A program made the translations under genes and the position numbers. Positions 57,062-64,000 of a stretch of DNA of 64,000 nucleotides are shown here, in pieces. The stretch is taken from the NCBI RefSeq assembly GCF_038025025.1, contig NW_027117349.1, positions 248,001 through 312,000 of the forward strand. The letters are read 5' to 3'. The notes under the pieces were generated by a model. The model worked only from the letters and a program-made list of their open reading frames with translations. It did no database searches and was not told the origin of the DNA. This DNA comes from Phyllosticta citribraziliensis (Eukaryota). Position 1 is the first letter of the stretch. The number at the start of each line of letters is the position of its first letter.

Positions 57062-58683
57062 TTAGGAAACGACCTTCTCAATCATCTCAATACCGTACTT
57101 CTCCTTGAGCTCCTTGATGAGCGGGTCGTTAATGGCCGGGGTCATGGGGGCGAGAATGCCCTTGTCGGCAATCTTGCCCTCAATGACGAGCTTGACGGCG
57201 ACGGCGCAGGGGACACCGACGAGCTTGGCCATGGCCGAGTAGCCACCCGAGCCCTCGGGCTGGCCGTACTCGACGAGAGTCGAGGTGCGGACCTCGCTGG
57301 AGCCGTCGGCGTTCTCGATGCCGAACTTGTGCTGCAGCATGACCATGTCGCGCTCGCCCTTGGTGTACTGCATCTTCTTCTCGAGCGTGGCGCACAGCGT
57401 GTCGAGCGGGTTGCCGCGCGGCTCGACGGGCGTGTCGCTGAAGACGCCGATCCAGCGCAGGCCGTTGACGATGCGGTTCTTCTCTTCCGTGTCGGCGAAG
57501 CTGGTCTTGCTGCTAATGGCCCACACCAGGTCCGACTCGCCGGCAGTCGACGCGCCCAGGACGCGCTTGGTGACTTCGCGCCACGACAGCGGCGTGCTGC
57601 CGGGCTTGAGGTAGTCGACCTCGGCGTCGGAGAGGAAGCCCATGTCGACGAGCGTCTTGATGAACTCGGGGAAGCCCTGGTAGCGCAGGGTGCCGCGCAC
57701 AATGGTGTCGGCCTCGGGGATGCTGTAGCGCTCCTTGTAGGGGGTCGAGTCACGGTTGGGGTAGGCAACGAAGGCGTAGCCAGGGTAGATGAAGTAGGGC
57801 TTGGCGGTCGACATGAGGTCCTTGGACTCAATGTCGACGACCTTGCCGTCCTTCCAGTACTTGGCGGCGTTGCGGAGGGCCAGGAGGACACCGCGCGACG
57901 ACCACGAGAACTTGTAACCCAGGGGGTTGTCCGAGTTCTCGGGGGCGGGCAGACCACCGCAGTACGAGAGGAAAGACTTGATCTTGCCGCCGGCCCTGTG
58001 GACCTCGTCAATGGTCTTGACGGCGTACAGGTGGTCAACACCGGGGTCAAGGCCAATCTCGTTCATGACGGTAATGCCGGCCTCCTTGGCAGCAGCGTCA
58101 AGCTCCATCATGGCGGGAGAGACGTAGCTGGTGGTGACGACATGCTTCTTCTATGGGGGTGTTAGAATTGAACCTCCTCACGATCCAGCTTTCAGGTAGA
58201 CTTACGTTACGGATAGCAGACTTGATGACGGTGGCGTGGTGGGTGTAGGGGATGAGAGAGATGGTCTGTCAATGTGAGCTTGTTGTCTTGAGGAAAAGGT
58301 TGAGTTGTCAATCACCAGAGCATGCTTGCCGACCTCAGCGTCAAGAGCCTTCTCGTCAGAGACGTCAAGGGAAATGGCAGAGGCGTGCTTGATGCCCTCG
58401 GAGAACTTCTTGGCGTTCTCGAGGGTACGGCAGGCTGTTCACAGTGTTGGTGCACAGTCCAGTGGTAGATGAGTAGCTAGCGGACTTACCAACAGTGACC
58501 TATAGGACTGGTTAGCGCGGACATTGGACGCAAGGACCTGGTTTCCTCACCTTGAAGCCGGACTCGCTCAGAATCTCAGCGGTGGGACGGGCAACTGGAT
58601 CGGCAGTTAGAGGAATGGGCGTAATAGGCGGAAGAATGAGAAATACCAAAGCCAGAGCCGAGCAGCAGGATGGACTGGGTCAT
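57062..58683 (-). CDS. LYS9: Saccharopine dehydrogenase (glutamate-forming, saccharopine reductase)
   Basis: MTQSILLLGSGFVARP, ISLIPY, VTTSYVS, NEIGLDPGVDH, SYCGGLP, YKFSWS, RGTLRY. Five coding introns clustered at the 5' end and a probable 5'UTR intron 58716-58824. Confidence 0.95.
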
Positions 58684-59217
58684 TTTGATGATGATTCACG
58701 TATCACAAAAATAACCTGGGGAAAAAGTATGAGCAATCAATTGCTTGGACTCAAAACAAAACCGAAAAGTCAAGGAGCGTAGGAGAGCAGAGGTGTGGAG
58801 GTGGAGAACAAAGACTTGAAGTACCTTTGTAGAGTTGAGGGTGACGGAGATGTCGCAGGGCGTGCTCTGGATGCGTGTCGGGCGACACTCAAAAAAGTTC
58901 GGTGTTCAGGGTGGGGTGTTGGTCCACCGCCCAAGGCGGCAGCCAATTGCGGGACGAAGCCTGAAGCTGCCCTGAGGCGGGGCACTAATGGAGACGGAGC
59001 TTGGGCCACGTCCGGCGCCATTGTTTTTCCAGTTCCCTCCGCTTTCTTTTCTTCTCATCCGGCCACGACGCGTTCTTCGGCGTCTGCTCTTCTTTTCTTT
59101 CCATCGGCTTCCAGTCAGCCCGCGTCTATGACTCCTGCGCGTGGCTCGACGACTGCCCACCAACACTCAACACCTGTCGACCTCCTCATTTGACCTTGCT
59201 AACCAACAACATCCACC

Positions 59218-60373
59218 ATGGACGCTTTCTGGGCTCTGCCGCCGGTGACGAGGTACGTCGTCTATGCGCGCCGATCCTCCGACTCCTCAACTGACACTCT
59301 CCAGGACGATTGTGGCAGCGTCTCTCGTCACCTCCGTCGGCGTCTACAGTGGTCTTGTGCCCTTCCCGCCCTTGGTCTTCATCCCATACCGGGTCTTCAG
59401 GTTCCCGCCAGAAATCTGGAGAGTTGTGACTTCGTTCTTCATAACCGGCCCGCAACTTGGTATCATCATGGACCCGTACTTTCTCTACCAGTATGGCTCG
59501 CAGCTTGAGACTGGCTCGCCAAGGTTCTCTGAGCCTGGCTCCTTTTTCGTGTACATTGTGTTTGTCGGGGCTGTCATCTTGGTAAGTTTCTTGCAGTCAT
59601 GCTGTGCACCGTCTTCCAGCCTTTCTGCCCTTGGTCGGCTCCCCCTAGATAGTACAAGCTACACCCTGGATTATCTGCCCGCCCAGCCTTTTCTAGCTGA
59701 AGCGGTTCCTGGAACCAGGGAAGATTACCGCTGCACTTCGCACGAGCCATCATTCGCATACCTTACTTCGGCTCGTGTGCGGTGTAGCCATGGTGGGATC
59801 GTCAGTTGAGATAACGTCTGCGGTCTTCCATGTCGCAGAGGTGGTTTTGGCTCCCTACATGCTTTCCATCCGAATCGTCGTGCTTCTGAGCGTGAAAGGC
59901 TTCGTCAGACAGAGTTACTAACTCCTGTCAAGGGCCTGGCCGGCTATGTCCTCGGTGCCTTCAAATTCCTTGACGCCCTCATCATGGCAATCACGTACAC
60001 ATTTGCTCAGGAGAACGCCAACAGCATGGTCACCTTCTTCGTCATCACCATCCAAGCCAAGTACTTGCCCTACCTACTGCTCATGGTCACGTTTGTCATG
60101 GGAGGCACGGGAGCAGCATTGCACCAAGGAACTGGACTCTTTGCTGCCCATCTTTACGACTTTCTGACGCACATTTGGCCAACGTTCGGAGGGGGCAGAA
60201 ACTACATCAGCACACCGAGATTTGTGAGGAATTGGTTCGCTGGCAGTGGCGTCCGGCCTACTCCTCAGACTCGAGGTTACGGCACGTCATTTGCTGCACC
60301 AACAGAGGGTCGCAGTACCGGCACAAGCTGGTCTAGCACTCGCGGGCCAGGTCGTCGTTTGGGAGGAGATTGA
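59218..60373 (+). CDS. Derlin (Der1/Dfm1 family) ERAD membrane protein
   Basis: LPPVTR, EIWRVVT (WR motif), AKYLP, GLFAAHLYDFL and C-terminal GPGRRLGG (SHP-box-like). Introns 59253-59304 and 59582-59932. Confidence 0.9.
59694..59914 (+). ncRNA. Candidate intronic box H/ACA RNA
   Basis: Hairpin-hinge-hairpin-tail layout: hairpin 1 closed by TAGCTGA/TCAGTTG, H box AGATAA 59809-59814, hairpin 2 closed by TCTG/CAGA, ACA 59909-59911 just before the branch site TACTAAC. Confidence 0.6.
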
Positions 60374-60772
60374 GCTGACTGTTGATCGTTGATATGATAC
60401 AATTCAATGCAGACAGTATTAGTACTGACTTTTTTTGGTGTTGTCTGGTGACTCGAAAATGATGCGTGCAATCCTGCCAGTGACATGTGATGAAGCCATT
60501 GACTTGACCTGAGAATCGCCAGCCAAAGAATCGACGACCAAAGACGTGGTCGTTGAGCGTTGTGGCTTAGGTAATAGGGCGGTGAGGTGGTCGGCGCACT
60601 GGGGAAACTGGCTCGCCGAGAGAGCGCACGGGCCAGTAAAAATTTCGAGGTGCAGCTTTGGTTTGCGTCGCGACTCTCAACTCCAACCGCGAACACTGCC
60701 ACTCCAACAGAGGCAACAAGAAACGTCCAGCATCAACGGAAGGGGCTGCCAAAGCGAATTCTCATATCCACA

Positions 60773-62277
60773 ATGGCCGCCATAGTCCCTGCCCAGGATG
60801 CGGACTACACCATCAAACCGCAAGCCGTTACGCCCAAGATCGACACCAGCGAATGGCCCCTCCTGCTGAAGAACTACGACAACTTGCTCGTCCGCAGCGG
60901 TCACTTTGTCCCGATCCCCCACGGTTGCGCTCCCCACAAGCGTGACCTGAAGAGCTACATCTCCTCCGGTGTCATCAACCTCGACAAGCCCGCCAACCCT
61001 TCCAGTCACGAAGTCGTCGCGTGGATCAAGAGAATTCTTCGCGTCGAAAAGACCGGTCACAGCGGCACCCTCGACCCCAAGGTCACCGGCTGCTTGATTG
61101 TCTGCATCGACCGTGCCACTCGTCTCGTCAAGTCTCAGCAGGGCGCTGGTAAGGAGTACGTCTGCGTCATCCGTCTCCACGACAAGCTTCCCGGCGGCGA
61201 GGCCCAATTCGCACGCGCTCTCGAGACTCTCACCGGAGCCCTGTTCCAGCGTCCTCCTCTGATCTCGGCCGTCAAGCGCCAGCTCCGTATCCGAACCATT
61301 CACGAGAGCAAGCTGATCGAGTTTGACAATGACCGCCACCTTGGTGTCTTCTGGGTCAGCTGCGAGGCCGGTACCTACATTCGTACTCTCTGCGTTCACT
61401 TGGGTCTGCTGCTAGGTGTTGGTGCACACATGCAGGAGCTCAGGCGTGTGAGGAGTGGTGCTATGAGCGAGAATGACAACTTGGTCACCCTTCACGACGT
61501 TCTCGACGCCCAGCACGTCCACGACAACAACTTGGACGAGTCGTACTTGCGCCAGGTCATTTCTCCGCTCGAGTCGCTCCTTACCTCCTACAAGAGGATC
61601 GTCGTCAAGGACAGCGCTGTCAACGCCGTCTGCTACGGTGCCAAGCTCATGATTCCAGGCTTGCTCCGCTTCGGTAAGTTCATGTGATTGGATTTTTCCT
61701 ATGCTTCAGACTAACGTTTGTAGACCGCGACATTGAAGTTCACGAGGAGGTCATCCTGATGACCACCAAGGGCGAGGCCATTGCCCTCGGCATCGCCCTC
61801 ATGTCCACGGTTGAGATGACCACTTGCGACCACGGCGTTGTTGCCAAGATCAAGCGCGTCATCATGGAGCGCGACCTCTACCCCAAGCGCTGGGGTCTCG
61901 GCCCGGTTGCTACTGAGAAGAAGAAGCTCAAGGCCGACGGAAAGCTTGACAAGTACGGCAGGACCAACGAGAACACTCCGGCCCAATGGAAGAGCGACTA
62001 CAGGGACCTCTCCGCCGCTGAGCAAGCTTCGGTCCAGCCCGTTGCCGCAATCCCTTCTAAGCCTGCCGCCCCGTCTGCTGACGCCGAAGAGCTTCCTGAC
62101 GCTCCTGCGCCGGCATCTGTCAACGGGGACGAGTCCAAGGACAAGAAGAGGAAGAGCAAGCACGACGGCGAGACAGCGGAGGAGAAGGCTGAGCGCAAGC
62201 GCAGAAAGGCCGAGAAGAAGGAGAAGAAGGAGCGCCGCAAGTCGCAAAAGTCGGCCAAGGACAGTGACAGCGACTAA
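60773..62277 (+). CDS. CBF5: H/ACA RNP pseudouridine synthase Cbf5/dyskerin
   Basis: [37 protein letters not shown] domain and KKE-rich tail. Intron 61674-61723. Confidence 0.97.
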
Positions 62278-62850: not shown

Positions 62851-64000
62851 ATGGTCAAAGAGACCAAGCTCTACGATGCGCTGGGTAAGCTCCGGTTGAC
62901 GAGGCTGGTGACCATGGTTCTTCTCGGCTTTCCTCGCTAACTCTTCGTCCTCTAGGCGTGAGCTCTACGGCATCGCAAGATGACATCAGAAAGGCCTATC
63001 GCAAGGGTGCCTTGAAGTGGCATCCCGACAAGAACAAAGACAACCCTCAAGCTGCGGAAAAGTTCAAAGGTGAGTTGAGCATGCTTCAGCCCTGCGGAGC
63101 ATCTGCCGTCGCACCAGACTACGTGTTTGCTAACTATTCCATTCTACAGAGCTCTCACAAGCGTACGAAATCCTGTCCGATCCCGAAAAGCGAAAAACGT
63201 ACGACCAGTTTGGCCTGGAGTTCATACTGCGCGGCGGCGCACCTCCGCCAGAGGGCGCTGAAGGCTTCGCAGATGGAGGCAACCCGTTTGCTGGGGGAGG
63301 TCCGGGTGGCTTCAACTTTGGCGGCATGCCTGGCGGAGGCGGTAGCGGCGGCGCGCGCACTTTCCACTTCTCAACCGGCGGTCCTGGAGGCAGCTCGTTC
63401 CAATTCTCGAACGCCGAAGACATATTCGCAGATTTCTTGCGCTCCGGCGGCGGCGGAGGCGCAAGGAGTACAGGTATGGACGACGACGACTTTGGGTTTT
63501 CGCCCTTTGGTGGGGGCATGCCTGGTGGATTTCCCGGCGGAGGACGGCCAAGCGCGAAGAGGTCGGCGACGGGAAGTCGGTTCGGTGACCGCAGGCCGCA
63601 GACACCAGAGGTCACGGTTGTCGAGAAGCCGCTTCCGGTCACGCTGGAGGAGCTGTTCAATGGCACAACCAAGAAGATGAAGATCAAGCGCAAGACGTAC
63701 GACCCGGCAACCGGAAAACAGAGCACGCAGGATCGTATTCTCGAGGTGCCAATCAAGAAGGGTCTCAAGCCTGGATCCAAGATCAAATTCTCAGACGTCG
63801 GCGACCAAGTAGAGGGCGGTACTCAGGACCTCCACTTCATCGTTTCCGAGGTAAGTCGCACGGACAGTGTTTCAGATGATGTCATTGCTAACATTTTCTT
63901 CAGAAAGAGCACCCTATCTTCAAACGCGAAGGCGACGATATCCACCACAAAGTCGACATTGATCTTAAGGAAGCCCTCACCGGTTGGCGGCGAACTGTCC
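62851..64000 (+). CDS. SIS1: Type II Hsp40/DnaJ, Sis1-like (3' end outside window)
   Basis: [20 protein letters not shown]-domain, G/F region, [15 protein letters not shown]. Introns 62885-62955, 63070-63149, 63851-63903. Confidence 0.9.

What the first reader, a model, noticed from the sequence alone, without database searches (positions are those of the whole stretch)
59582..59932. Structured H/ACA-like RNA hidden in an oversized derlin intron, next to CBF5
Seen: the intron is 351 nt whereas the other introns here are about 50-145 nt. It folds by eye into two long hairpins. Hairpin 1 pairs TAGCTGA/TCAGTTG, GCGGTTCC/GGGATCGT, ACCA/TGGT, GCTGCAC/GTGTAGC and GCACGAGCC/GGCTCGTGT. An ANANNA hinge (AGATAA) follows, then hairpin 2 (GTCTG/CAGAC, CAGAGG/CTTCTG) and ACA+3 nt ending just upstream of the branch point. 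Known: this is the box H/ACA architecture, and such RNAs are bound by Cbf5. Inference: an ERAD gene is an atypical snoRNA host, and its position directly upstream of CBF5 could reflect co-expression or chance. Hairpin 1 also has an unpaired GAAGATTACC loop that could be a non-guide element. I could not assign a convincing target; TCCT/GGGA could loosely flank LSU rRNA UUUCCC-U-CAGGA but the geometry is imperfect.
Basis: partly seen in the sequence, partly recalled or inferred. Interest (0 to 1): 0.75.

Follow-up and report, generated by a model that had tools for sequence, protein, structure and literature searches.

The report
Known guide snoRNA in derlin intron
The long intron of this fungal ER quality-control gene does hold a real small RNA gene, but it is the counterpart of an already cloned Neurospora RNA that most likely guides chemical marks on ribosomal RNA; only a conserved loop in its extra middle hairpin is still unexplained.

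Summary
The 351-nt derlin intron (59582-59932) is real and spliced. The RNA is the ortholog of Neurospora Nc ACA9, cloned and northern-verified in 2009 as an intronic orphan and already drawn with three hairpins; probably the snR43 family. No Rfam model hits it. Family-wide pocket scan: hairpin 1 best fits the LSU uridine equal to yeast Psi966/human Psi1670; hairpin 3 fits the one equal to human Psi1766, unmodified in both yeasts. The middle hairpin's near-invariant loop can pair either with LSU helix 38 between those two targets or with the U14 site in 18S; unresolved. CBF5 adjacency is local (2 of 80 loci). The scan found this RNA before on other genomes. Ordinary kind, modest leads.

The parts
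59218..60373 (+). Derlin (Der1/Dfm1-like) host gene; exons 59218-59252, 59305-59581, 59933-60373
   Evidence: PF04511 on exons 2 and 3; both splice joints in 4 of 4 runs, poly(A) loose end at 60428 in run X2
59582..59932 (+). Intron 2, 351 nt, phase 0, branch point 59916-59922, AAG acceptor; hosts the snoRNA
   Evidence: same position and 309-426 nt long in 60 loci where both ends could be placed
59662..59862 (+). Box H/ACA snoRNA, about 201 nt, ortholog of N. crassa Nc ACA9 (ends inferred from the Nc cDNA and ACA+3)
59664..59720 (+). Hairpin 1: lower stem 59664-69/59715-20, pocket strands 59670-78 and 59706-14, upper stems 59679-87/59696-705; predicted guide for own LSU U960 (yeast Psi966, human Psi1670), possibly also 5.8S U72 (yeast Psi73)
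   Evidence: pocket cores invariant in 34 of 34 rows, 15-16 nt from the H box in 34 of 34; target ranks; covariation
59722..59727 (+). H box (AGAUUA)
   Evidence: ANANNA in 29 of 34 rows, ANANNG in the other 5; boxed as H in the published Nc ACA9 drawing
59727..59794 (+). Middle (extra) hairpin, stems 59730-48/59770-88, probably closed by 59727-29/59792-94
   Evidence: 12-pair helix 95% paired, 9 of 12 pairs with two-sided changes; RNAalifold
59749..59758 (+). Conserved apical-loop element of the middle hairpin; complementary to own LSU 992-1000 (helix 38) and to 18S 88-96 (U14 site); function unknown
   Evidence: 9-mer exact in 29 of 34 rows and in Nc ACA9; pairing tables
59795..59856 (+). 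Hairpin 3: lower stems 59795-804/59848-55, pocket strands 59805-13 and 59843-47, upper stem 59814-23/59833-42; predicted guide for own LSU U1032 (human Psi1766)
   Evidence: pocket 14 nt from ACA in 34 of 34 rows; top target of 1754 uridines; covariation
59857..59859 (+). ACA box
   Evidence: ACA in 33 of 34 rows
60773..62277 (+). CBF5 (dyskerin) gene, neighbour; not part of the RNA and not a conserved partner
   Evidence: Pfam; synteny tally

Best explanation
An intron-encoded box H/ACA pseudouridylation guide snoRNA, the ortholog of Neurospora Nc ACA9 and most likely of yeast snR43. Shown: the intron is spliced; the RNA sequence, boxes and three-hairpin fold are conserved; the Neurospora ortholog accumulates as a 201-nt RNA. 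Inferred from what is established for the class: it is trimmed out of the spliced intron, binds Cbf5/Nop10/Nhp2/Gar1, and hairpin 1 presents the LSU uridine equal to yeast Psi966 (about 0.85; perhaps also the 5.8S Psi73 site, about 0.5). Inferred more weakly: hairpin 3 guides the helix-38 uridine equal to human Psi1766 in most of the sampled fungi (about 0.6), a pocket that Neurospora has lost or changed and that is weakened by one substitution in this species; and the loop of the extra middle hairpin adds a third rRNA contact, most simply to helix 38 between the two targets (about 0.25) or to 18S helix 6 (about 0.2). Derlin supplies transcription and splicing only; CBF5 is a neighbour by local gene order.
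For: Orthology: six colinear blocks of 8-15 identical bases (window 59672-82, 59702-16, 59719-32, 59747-58, 59787-98, 59853-60; 72 bases) shared with Nc ACA9, compared by eye with the supplement text; same length, intronic, cloned and seen by northern; published drawing has the same three hairpins and boxes. Structure: 84.6% of cells paired, 37 of 48 pairs with two-sided changes, 0 of 500 shuffles as high, slid controls 42-45%. Geometry: 15-16 nt to H and 14 nt to ACA in 34 of 34 rows. Targets: among 1754 uridines of this genome's rRNA, hairpin 1 ranks LSU U960 first (mean 10.1, next 9.2; 5.8S U72 fourth) and hairpin 3 ranks LSU U1032 first (8.9, next 7.4; score at least 7 in 29 of 34); each strict target motif occurs once in 7557 bases, expected 0.03 and 0.007. 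Both hairpin-1 sites are the two known snR43 targets; human Psi1670 is 96% and Psi1766 40% modified. Canzler 2018 puts family HACA_9 with snR43.
Against: No direct sight of the small RNA or of any pseudouridine in this organism: the laid runs are contigs. Rfam snR43 and S. pombe snR92 models do not hit this genome at E<=10, so the snR43 link rests on target and on the numbering in Canzler 2018, whose supplements I could not read. On the window sequence alone U960 ranks second to third and U1032 is either unranked or tied with two other sites. The hairpin 3 target is unmodified in S. cerevisiae and S. pombe, 5 of 34 rows and Nc ACA9 lack that pocket strand, and only this genome's rRNA was used as target, with my own simple score. 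RNAalifold and single-sequence MFE close the hairpin 1 pocket partly in other ways. The host gene of Nc ACA9 is not named in what I read.
Confidence: 0.88

Rival explanations
1. Dual-function snoRNA: besides guiding LSU pseudouridines, the middle-hairpin loop binds 18S helix 6 at the U14 site and helps small-subunit rRNA folding or processing, as snR10 does with a separate element.
For: The loop shares an 8-base word with this genome's U14 and pairs 9-10 bases with 18S 88-96; duplex energy favours 18S in 20 of 34 rows; the last loop A is kept in 32 of 34 rows and pairs only in the 18S register. U14 pairs with 18S helix 6; snR10 precedent (abstract).
Against: An 8-base match somewhere in 18S arises in 5.6% of shuffles, somewhere in rRNA in 20%. 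The LSU register explains other positions better (59749 is A or G, both pairing with U, in 33 of 34; two rows extend the LSU duplex) and lies between the two guide targets, chance 0.5%. Two of 34 rows have lost the element. U14 with its own element is present.
Confidence: 0.2
2. The conserved structure is a cis element that controls splicing or retention of the derlin intron (for example under ER stress), or a cryptic alternative exon.
For: Intron-retaining contigs at about 7% (X1) and 23% (X3) of exon depth; 3 of 120 homologous protein records carry a peptide read from this intron stretch.
Against: H and ACA boxes, canonical pocket spacing and rRNA complementarity are what is conserved; the Neurospora ortholog is a stable separate RNA; reading on from exon 2 meets a stop at 59807-59809; the peptide records are most simply gene-model errors caused by RNA conservation.
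Confidence: 0.05
3. The position next to CBF5 is functional: guide RNA and enzyme are co-regulated as a mini-cluster.
For: Tandem neighbours 400 bases apart here; CBF5 follows derlin in L073/L074 (probably one organism); a near relative's derlin record is mislabelled cbf5 (P0003); LYS9 and DnaJ neighbours recur (12 and 7 of 80), so the block may be old.
Against: CBF5 adjacent in 2 of 80 loci, 1 of 49 with at least 1 kb downstream, 0 of 31 with at least 2 kb, while the RNA is kept. Derlin contigs end at 60428-60432 and the CBF5 contig starts at 60688. The loci are redundant and skewed to a few lineages.
Confidence: 0.08
4. The first reader's two-hairpin RNA at about 59694-59914.
For: All its stems exist in the window sequence and the sub-region 59694-59809 folds that way alone.
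Against: No covariation above shuffles; its 3' arm and ACA lie in unconserved flank; the cloned ortholog starts and ends elsewhere.
Confidence: 0.02

Closest known systems
Neurospora crassa Nc ACA9 (EU780988; Liu et al. 2009, PMC2780460)
   Same: Length about 201 nt, intronic, same H box, ACA, three hairpins, hairpin 1 pocket and middle-loop element; 72 identical bases in six colinear blocks (by eye).
   Different: Published as an orphan with no host gene named in the parts I read; its hairpin 3 pocket 5' strand differs and does not fit the helix-38 uridine.
Yeast snR43 / fungal family HACA_9 (Canzler et al. 2018, PMC5824354)
   Same: Targets 25S Psi966 and 5.8S Psi73 are the first and fourth ranked sites for hairpin 1.
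   Different: Rfam snR43 model does not match; Candida snR43 genes are non-genic, not intronic; whether snR43 has the middle hairpin and loop was not testable; hairpin 3 target is unmodified in yeast.
Human SNORA9 (ACA9)
   Same: Its ACA-side pocket pairs with the same helix-38 segment (drawn for Psi1768 in the supplement of PMC6182160); that it also guides Psi1670 and Psi1769 is recalled, from no call.
   Different: Register differs by 2-3 bases (predicted target here equals Psi1766); homology not tested.
U14 (box C/D) 18S helix 6 element; snR10 processing element
   Same: A short conserved single-stranded element outside the guide pockets with rRNA complementarity; 8-base word shared with this genome's U14.
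   Different: U14 is a C/D RNA; here the element sits in an apical loop of an H/ACA RNA, can equally pair with LSU helix 38, and no processing role is shown.

Membership tests
Box H/ACA snoRNA | H box ANANNA in a hinge after the first hairpin | tested here: met
   59722-59727; 29 of 34 rows ANANNA, 5 ANANNG
Box H/ACA snoRNA | ACA box 3 nt from the 3' end | tested here: met
   59857-59859, 33 of 34 rows; the cloned ortholog ends ACA+3; 3' end in this species not mapped
Box H/ACA snoRNA | Hairpin-hinge-hairpin-tail fold | tested here: met
   Met with one extra hairpin in the hinge; covariation above all 500 shuffles and slid controls
Box H/ACA snoRNA | Bipartite pocket pairing around a target U, 14-16 nt from H or ACA | tested here: met
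   Spacing 34 of 34 for both pockets; top-ranked rRNA targets; prediction only
Box H/ACA snoRNA | Stable small RNA bound by Cbf5/Nop10/Nhp2/Gar1 | not testable with these tools
   Only contigs could be laid; Neurospora ortholog cloned and seen by northern
Box H/ACA snoRNA | Target uridine converted in an RNA-dependent way | not testable with these tools
   Equivalent sites modified in yeast and human for hairpin 1, in human only for hairpin 3
Nc ACA9 orthologs | Colinear sequence identity, same length and fold | tested here: met
   By-eye comparison with supplement files 2 and 3; no alignment score was computed
Nc ACA9 orthologs | Same host intron (derlin) in N. crassa | not testable with these tools
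   Paper says 'Intron', chromosome V; no host named in passages read
snR43 family (Rfam RF01256; HACA_9) | Match to the Rfam covariance model | tested here: not met
   No match
snR43 family (Rfam RF01256; HACA_9) | Guides 25S Psi966 (and 5.8S Psi73) | tested here: met
   Predicted, ranks 1 and 4 of 1754; yeast assignments
snR43 family (Rfam RF01256; HACA_9) | Listed in HACA_9 by Canzler 2018 | tested here: inconclusive
   Inferred from the family numbering (HACA_3, 4, 6 match Nc ACA3, 4, 6) and from ACA9 not being among the orphans discussed; supplements unreadable
U14-like 18S processing element | Pairing with 18S helix 6 | tested here: inconclusive
   9-10 bp possible; rival LSU register fits about as well
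U14-like 18S processing element | Needed for pre-rRNA processing | not testable with these tools
   needs genetics

The most novel reading that the evidence does not exclude
A three-armed H/ACA RNP that grips the A-site-finger region at three points: hairpin 1 at the Psi966 site, a conserved apical loop on helix 38 across the Psi1004 site, and hairpin 3 at a uridine modified in humans (Psi1766) but not in yeasts. The loop would be an extra-pairing or rRNA-chaperone element of an H/ACA guide, or, in its other register, a second U14-like 18S helix 6 binder linking small- and large-subunit maturation in one RNA.
Probability: 0.3. Interest if true: 0.6.

Novelty: new member of a known kind. Interest (0 to 1): 0.3.

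Why it matters
As it stands it is annotation: an Rfam-missing but published fungal snoRNA gets a host gene, corrected boundaries and predicted targets, and it explains gene-model errors in derlin records. It would matter more if two leads held: a fungal guide for the helix-38 uridine that is partially and variably modified in humans (Psi1766), in a group where the neighbouring yeast guide snR33 was reported missing; and a conserved antisense loop on an extra hairpin, which would make extra rRNA pairing by an H/ACA guide directly testable by one loop mutation.

Tried and rejected
Rfam at gathering score on the window (0 hits) and at E<=10 on 59500-60000 (3 weak unrelated hits). Rfam snR43 and S. 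pombe snR92 against this genome: none. DNA search of the genome with the intron: one copy only. tRNA scan: none. Bacterial promoter/terminator scan: not applicable, its one hit is the hairpin 3 upper stem. Conserved cassette exon rejected (stop in frame; conservation follows RNA pairing). Single-sequence target scan was not decisive. Laid runs are contigs, so they show splicing but not the small RNA. Papers with nothing useful: PMC6984369, PMC4914119, PMC5062969; PMC3496775 not held; supplements of PMC5824354 unreadable and may already hold the HACA_9 alignment and both targets. No search listing showed a paper on a snoRNA in a derlin intron (20 of 87 listed), on Nc ACA9 beyond the two papers, or on extra pairing by this RNA (listings only). 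Sequence look-ups in the scan's own notes found nothing; the word look-up did.

Full report
1. The observation. The window lies in a 31-Mb, 22-contig fungal genome whose derlin is closest to Botryosphaeriales records. The gene has exons 59218-59252, 59305-59581 and 59933-60373; exons 2 and 3 hit Pfam DER1, the next gene on the same strand is CBF5, the divergent upstream gene is a saccharopine dehydrogenase, and a DnaJ gene follows CBF5. Both derlin introns (52 and 351 nt, GT..AG) are skipped in contigs of 4 of 4 laid runs; intron-retaining contigs occur at lower depth in three of them, and one contig ends in poly(A) at 60428. Rfam gives nothing at gathering score and three weak unrelated hits at E<=10.

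2. Comparison. A scan of metagenome contigs with a derlin exon 3 alignment gave 127 pattern hits, 105 confirmed, the best 80 kept. In 60 of the 80 both splice sites could be placed automatically (49 distinct introns, 309-426 nt; a few acceptors are misplaced). After a 93% redundancy filter 33 loci plus the window were aligned. Identity to the window row is 75% in 59664-59721, 62% in 59728-59794, 57% in 59795-59856, and 25-30% in both flanks. A covariance model from these 34 rows finds the element in 75 of 80 loci; the five misses are two spliced transcripts and three contigs that begin at exon 3. The loci are unnamed, redundant and probably skewed to a few lineages.

3. Anatomy. The conserved block is about 59662-59862. 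Hairpin 1 (59664-59720) has an internal loop whose cores are invariant in 34 of 34 rows; the H box follows at 59722-59727 (ANANNA in 29 of 34, ANANNG in 5); a long middle hairpin (59727-59794) carries an apical 9-mer that is exact in 29 of 34 rows; hairpin 3 (59795-59856) has a second internal loop; ACA is at 59857-59859 (33 of 34). For these 48 pairs 84.6% of cells pair, 37 pairs show two-sided changes, none of 500 shuffles reaches this and slid partners give 42-45%; the structure was drawn from the window row and the alignment, which favours it over slid controls, and two helices are poorly aligned (74% and 53% paired). The RNA sits a median 77 nt from the donor and 73 nt from the acceptor.

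4. Identity. Liu et al. 2009 (PMC2780460; passages, section 7 and supplement files 2 and 3 seen) list Nc ACA9: 201 nt, intronic, cloned and seen by northern, orphan. By eye it shares six colinear blocks of 8-15 identical bases with the window (59672-82, 59702-16, 59719-32, 59747-58, 59787-98, 59853-60), the same boxes and the same length, and their drawing already shows three hairpins. No host gene is named in what I read. Canzler et al. 2018 (PMC5824354; passages and section 27 seen, supplements not readable) place family HACA_9 with snR43; that HACA_9 contains Nc ACA9 is my inference from their numbering. The Rfam snR43 and S. pombe snR92 models do not match this genome. Candida snR43 genes are non-genic (PMC5033589, passages and supplement rows).

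5. Targets. I took this genome's own LSU, 5.8S and SSU (the LSU stretch is 5602 nt and holds insertions) and scored each row's pockets against all 1754 uridines with a simple pairing score. Hairpin 1: LSU U960 first (mean 10.1; next 9.2), 5.8S U72 fourth. Hairpin 3: LSU U1032 first (8.9; next 7.4; at least 7 in 29 of 34). Each strict motif occurs once in 7557 bases (expected 0.03 and 0.007), and pocket-to-box spacing is 15-16 and 14 nt in 34 of 34 rows. U960 has the context of human Psi1670, aligned to the yeast site listed as 964 in Taoka 2018 (PMC6182160; table passages and supplement rows), that is Psi966, guided by snR43 together with 5.8S Psi73 (PMC5699541, table passage). U1032 has the context of human Psi1766 (40% modified; helix 38 per PMC10454564 passages), unmodified in S. 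cerevisiae and S. pombe (PMC4605285 supplement rows). Against: on the window sequence alone U960 is second or third and U1032 is tied or unranked, because this species has U at 59812 where most rows and a close relative have A; 5 of 34 rows and Nc ACA9 lack that pocket strand; only one genome's rRNA was used.

6. The unexplained part. The middle loop (59749-59758) pairs 9 bases with own LSU 992-1000, across the uridine equal to yeast Psi1004 in helix 38 (PMC2794176 passages) and between the two predicted targets; a shuffled 9-mer does so in that interval in 0.5% of trials. It also pairs 9-10 bases with 18S 88-96 and shares an 8-base word with this genome's U14; U14 binds 18S helix 6 (PMC10783500 passages); chance for 18S 5.6%, for any rRNA 20%. 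Variation does not decide: position 59749 pairs in 33 of 34 rows in the LSU register and 19 of 34 in the 18S register; position 59758 pairs in 2 and 32; duplex energy favours LSU in 14 rows and 18S in 20; two rows have lost the element. Both tests were chosen after seeing the match. A precedent for a separate processing element in an H/ACA guide is snR10 (PMC2879522, abstract only).

7. CBF5. It follows derlin in 2 of 80 loci (probably one organism), in 1 of 49 with at least 1 kb downstream and 0 of 31 with at least 2 kb; LYS9 is upstream in 12 and DnaJ downstream in 7 of 80. The order may be old in some lineages but the RNA does not depend on it, and derlin and CBF5 contigs are separate.

8. 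How it works. Shown: spliced intron, conserved boxes and fold, stable ortholog in Neurospora. From established knowledge of the class: release from the intron, assembly with Cbf5, Nop10, Nhp2 and Gar1, isomerisation of the unpaired U. Inferred: Psi966-equivalent (0.85), 5.8S site (0.5), Psi1766-equivalent (0.6), a third contact by the loop (about 0.45 in all).

9. Novelty. The RNA and its three-hairpin shape are published; the snR43 link is probably in the 2018 supplement. I found no paper naming derlin as host, the hairpin 3 target or the loop pairing (searches; listings only), but unseen supplements may hold them. After my identification, the scan's own notes showed two earlier reports of the same RNA on other genomes. 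Verdict: new member of a known kind, interest 0.3.

Noticed in passing
P0008, P0041, P0062; window 59695-59735: Three of 120 derlin protein records contain a peptide translated from the snoRNA stretch, most likely gene-model errors caused by the conserved RNA.
   Followed up: partly
L033:4724-4947, L080:4722-4944, L083:611-833: Hairpin 3 pocket 5' strand is changed so that it fits the uridine 6 bases upstream (own LSU U1026; human Um1760 position), a possible target shift along a short tandem repeat in helix 38; not top-ranked in the scan.
   Followed up: partly
L011:1653-1859, L082:4720-4940: These two rows have lost the conserved middle-loop element; L082 and L039 also have an altered hairpin 3 pocket.
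   Followed up: no
window 59812: This species has U where most orthologs and a close relative (run X3) have A, weakening the hairpin 3 pairing next to the target.
   Followed up: partly
L033:7001-8353 (-) and similar loci: In several loci the gene downstream of derlin is the RNA polymerase I A49 subunit (PF06870), another ribosome-biogenesis gene, in place of CBF5.
   Followed up: partly
L002:1501-7102 (-): The genome's LSU rRNA gene spans 5602 nt against a 3401-position model, so it holds about 2.2 kb of insertions, probably group I introns; Rfam listed none at gathering score.
   Followed up: no
window 59930-59932: The host intron uses the rarer AAG acceptor, and many orthologs do too.
   Followed up: no
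L085:1501-1600 (-): U14 snoRNA of this genome, below the Rfam cut-off (38.7 bits) but with C and D boxes and the 18S-binding word.
   Followed up: partly
window 57062-58720 (-), 59218-60373, 60773-62277, 62852-64000: Local block LYS9-derlin-CBF5-DnaJ; LYS9 upstream and DnaJ downstream recur in other fungi without CBF5 between.
   Followed up: partly
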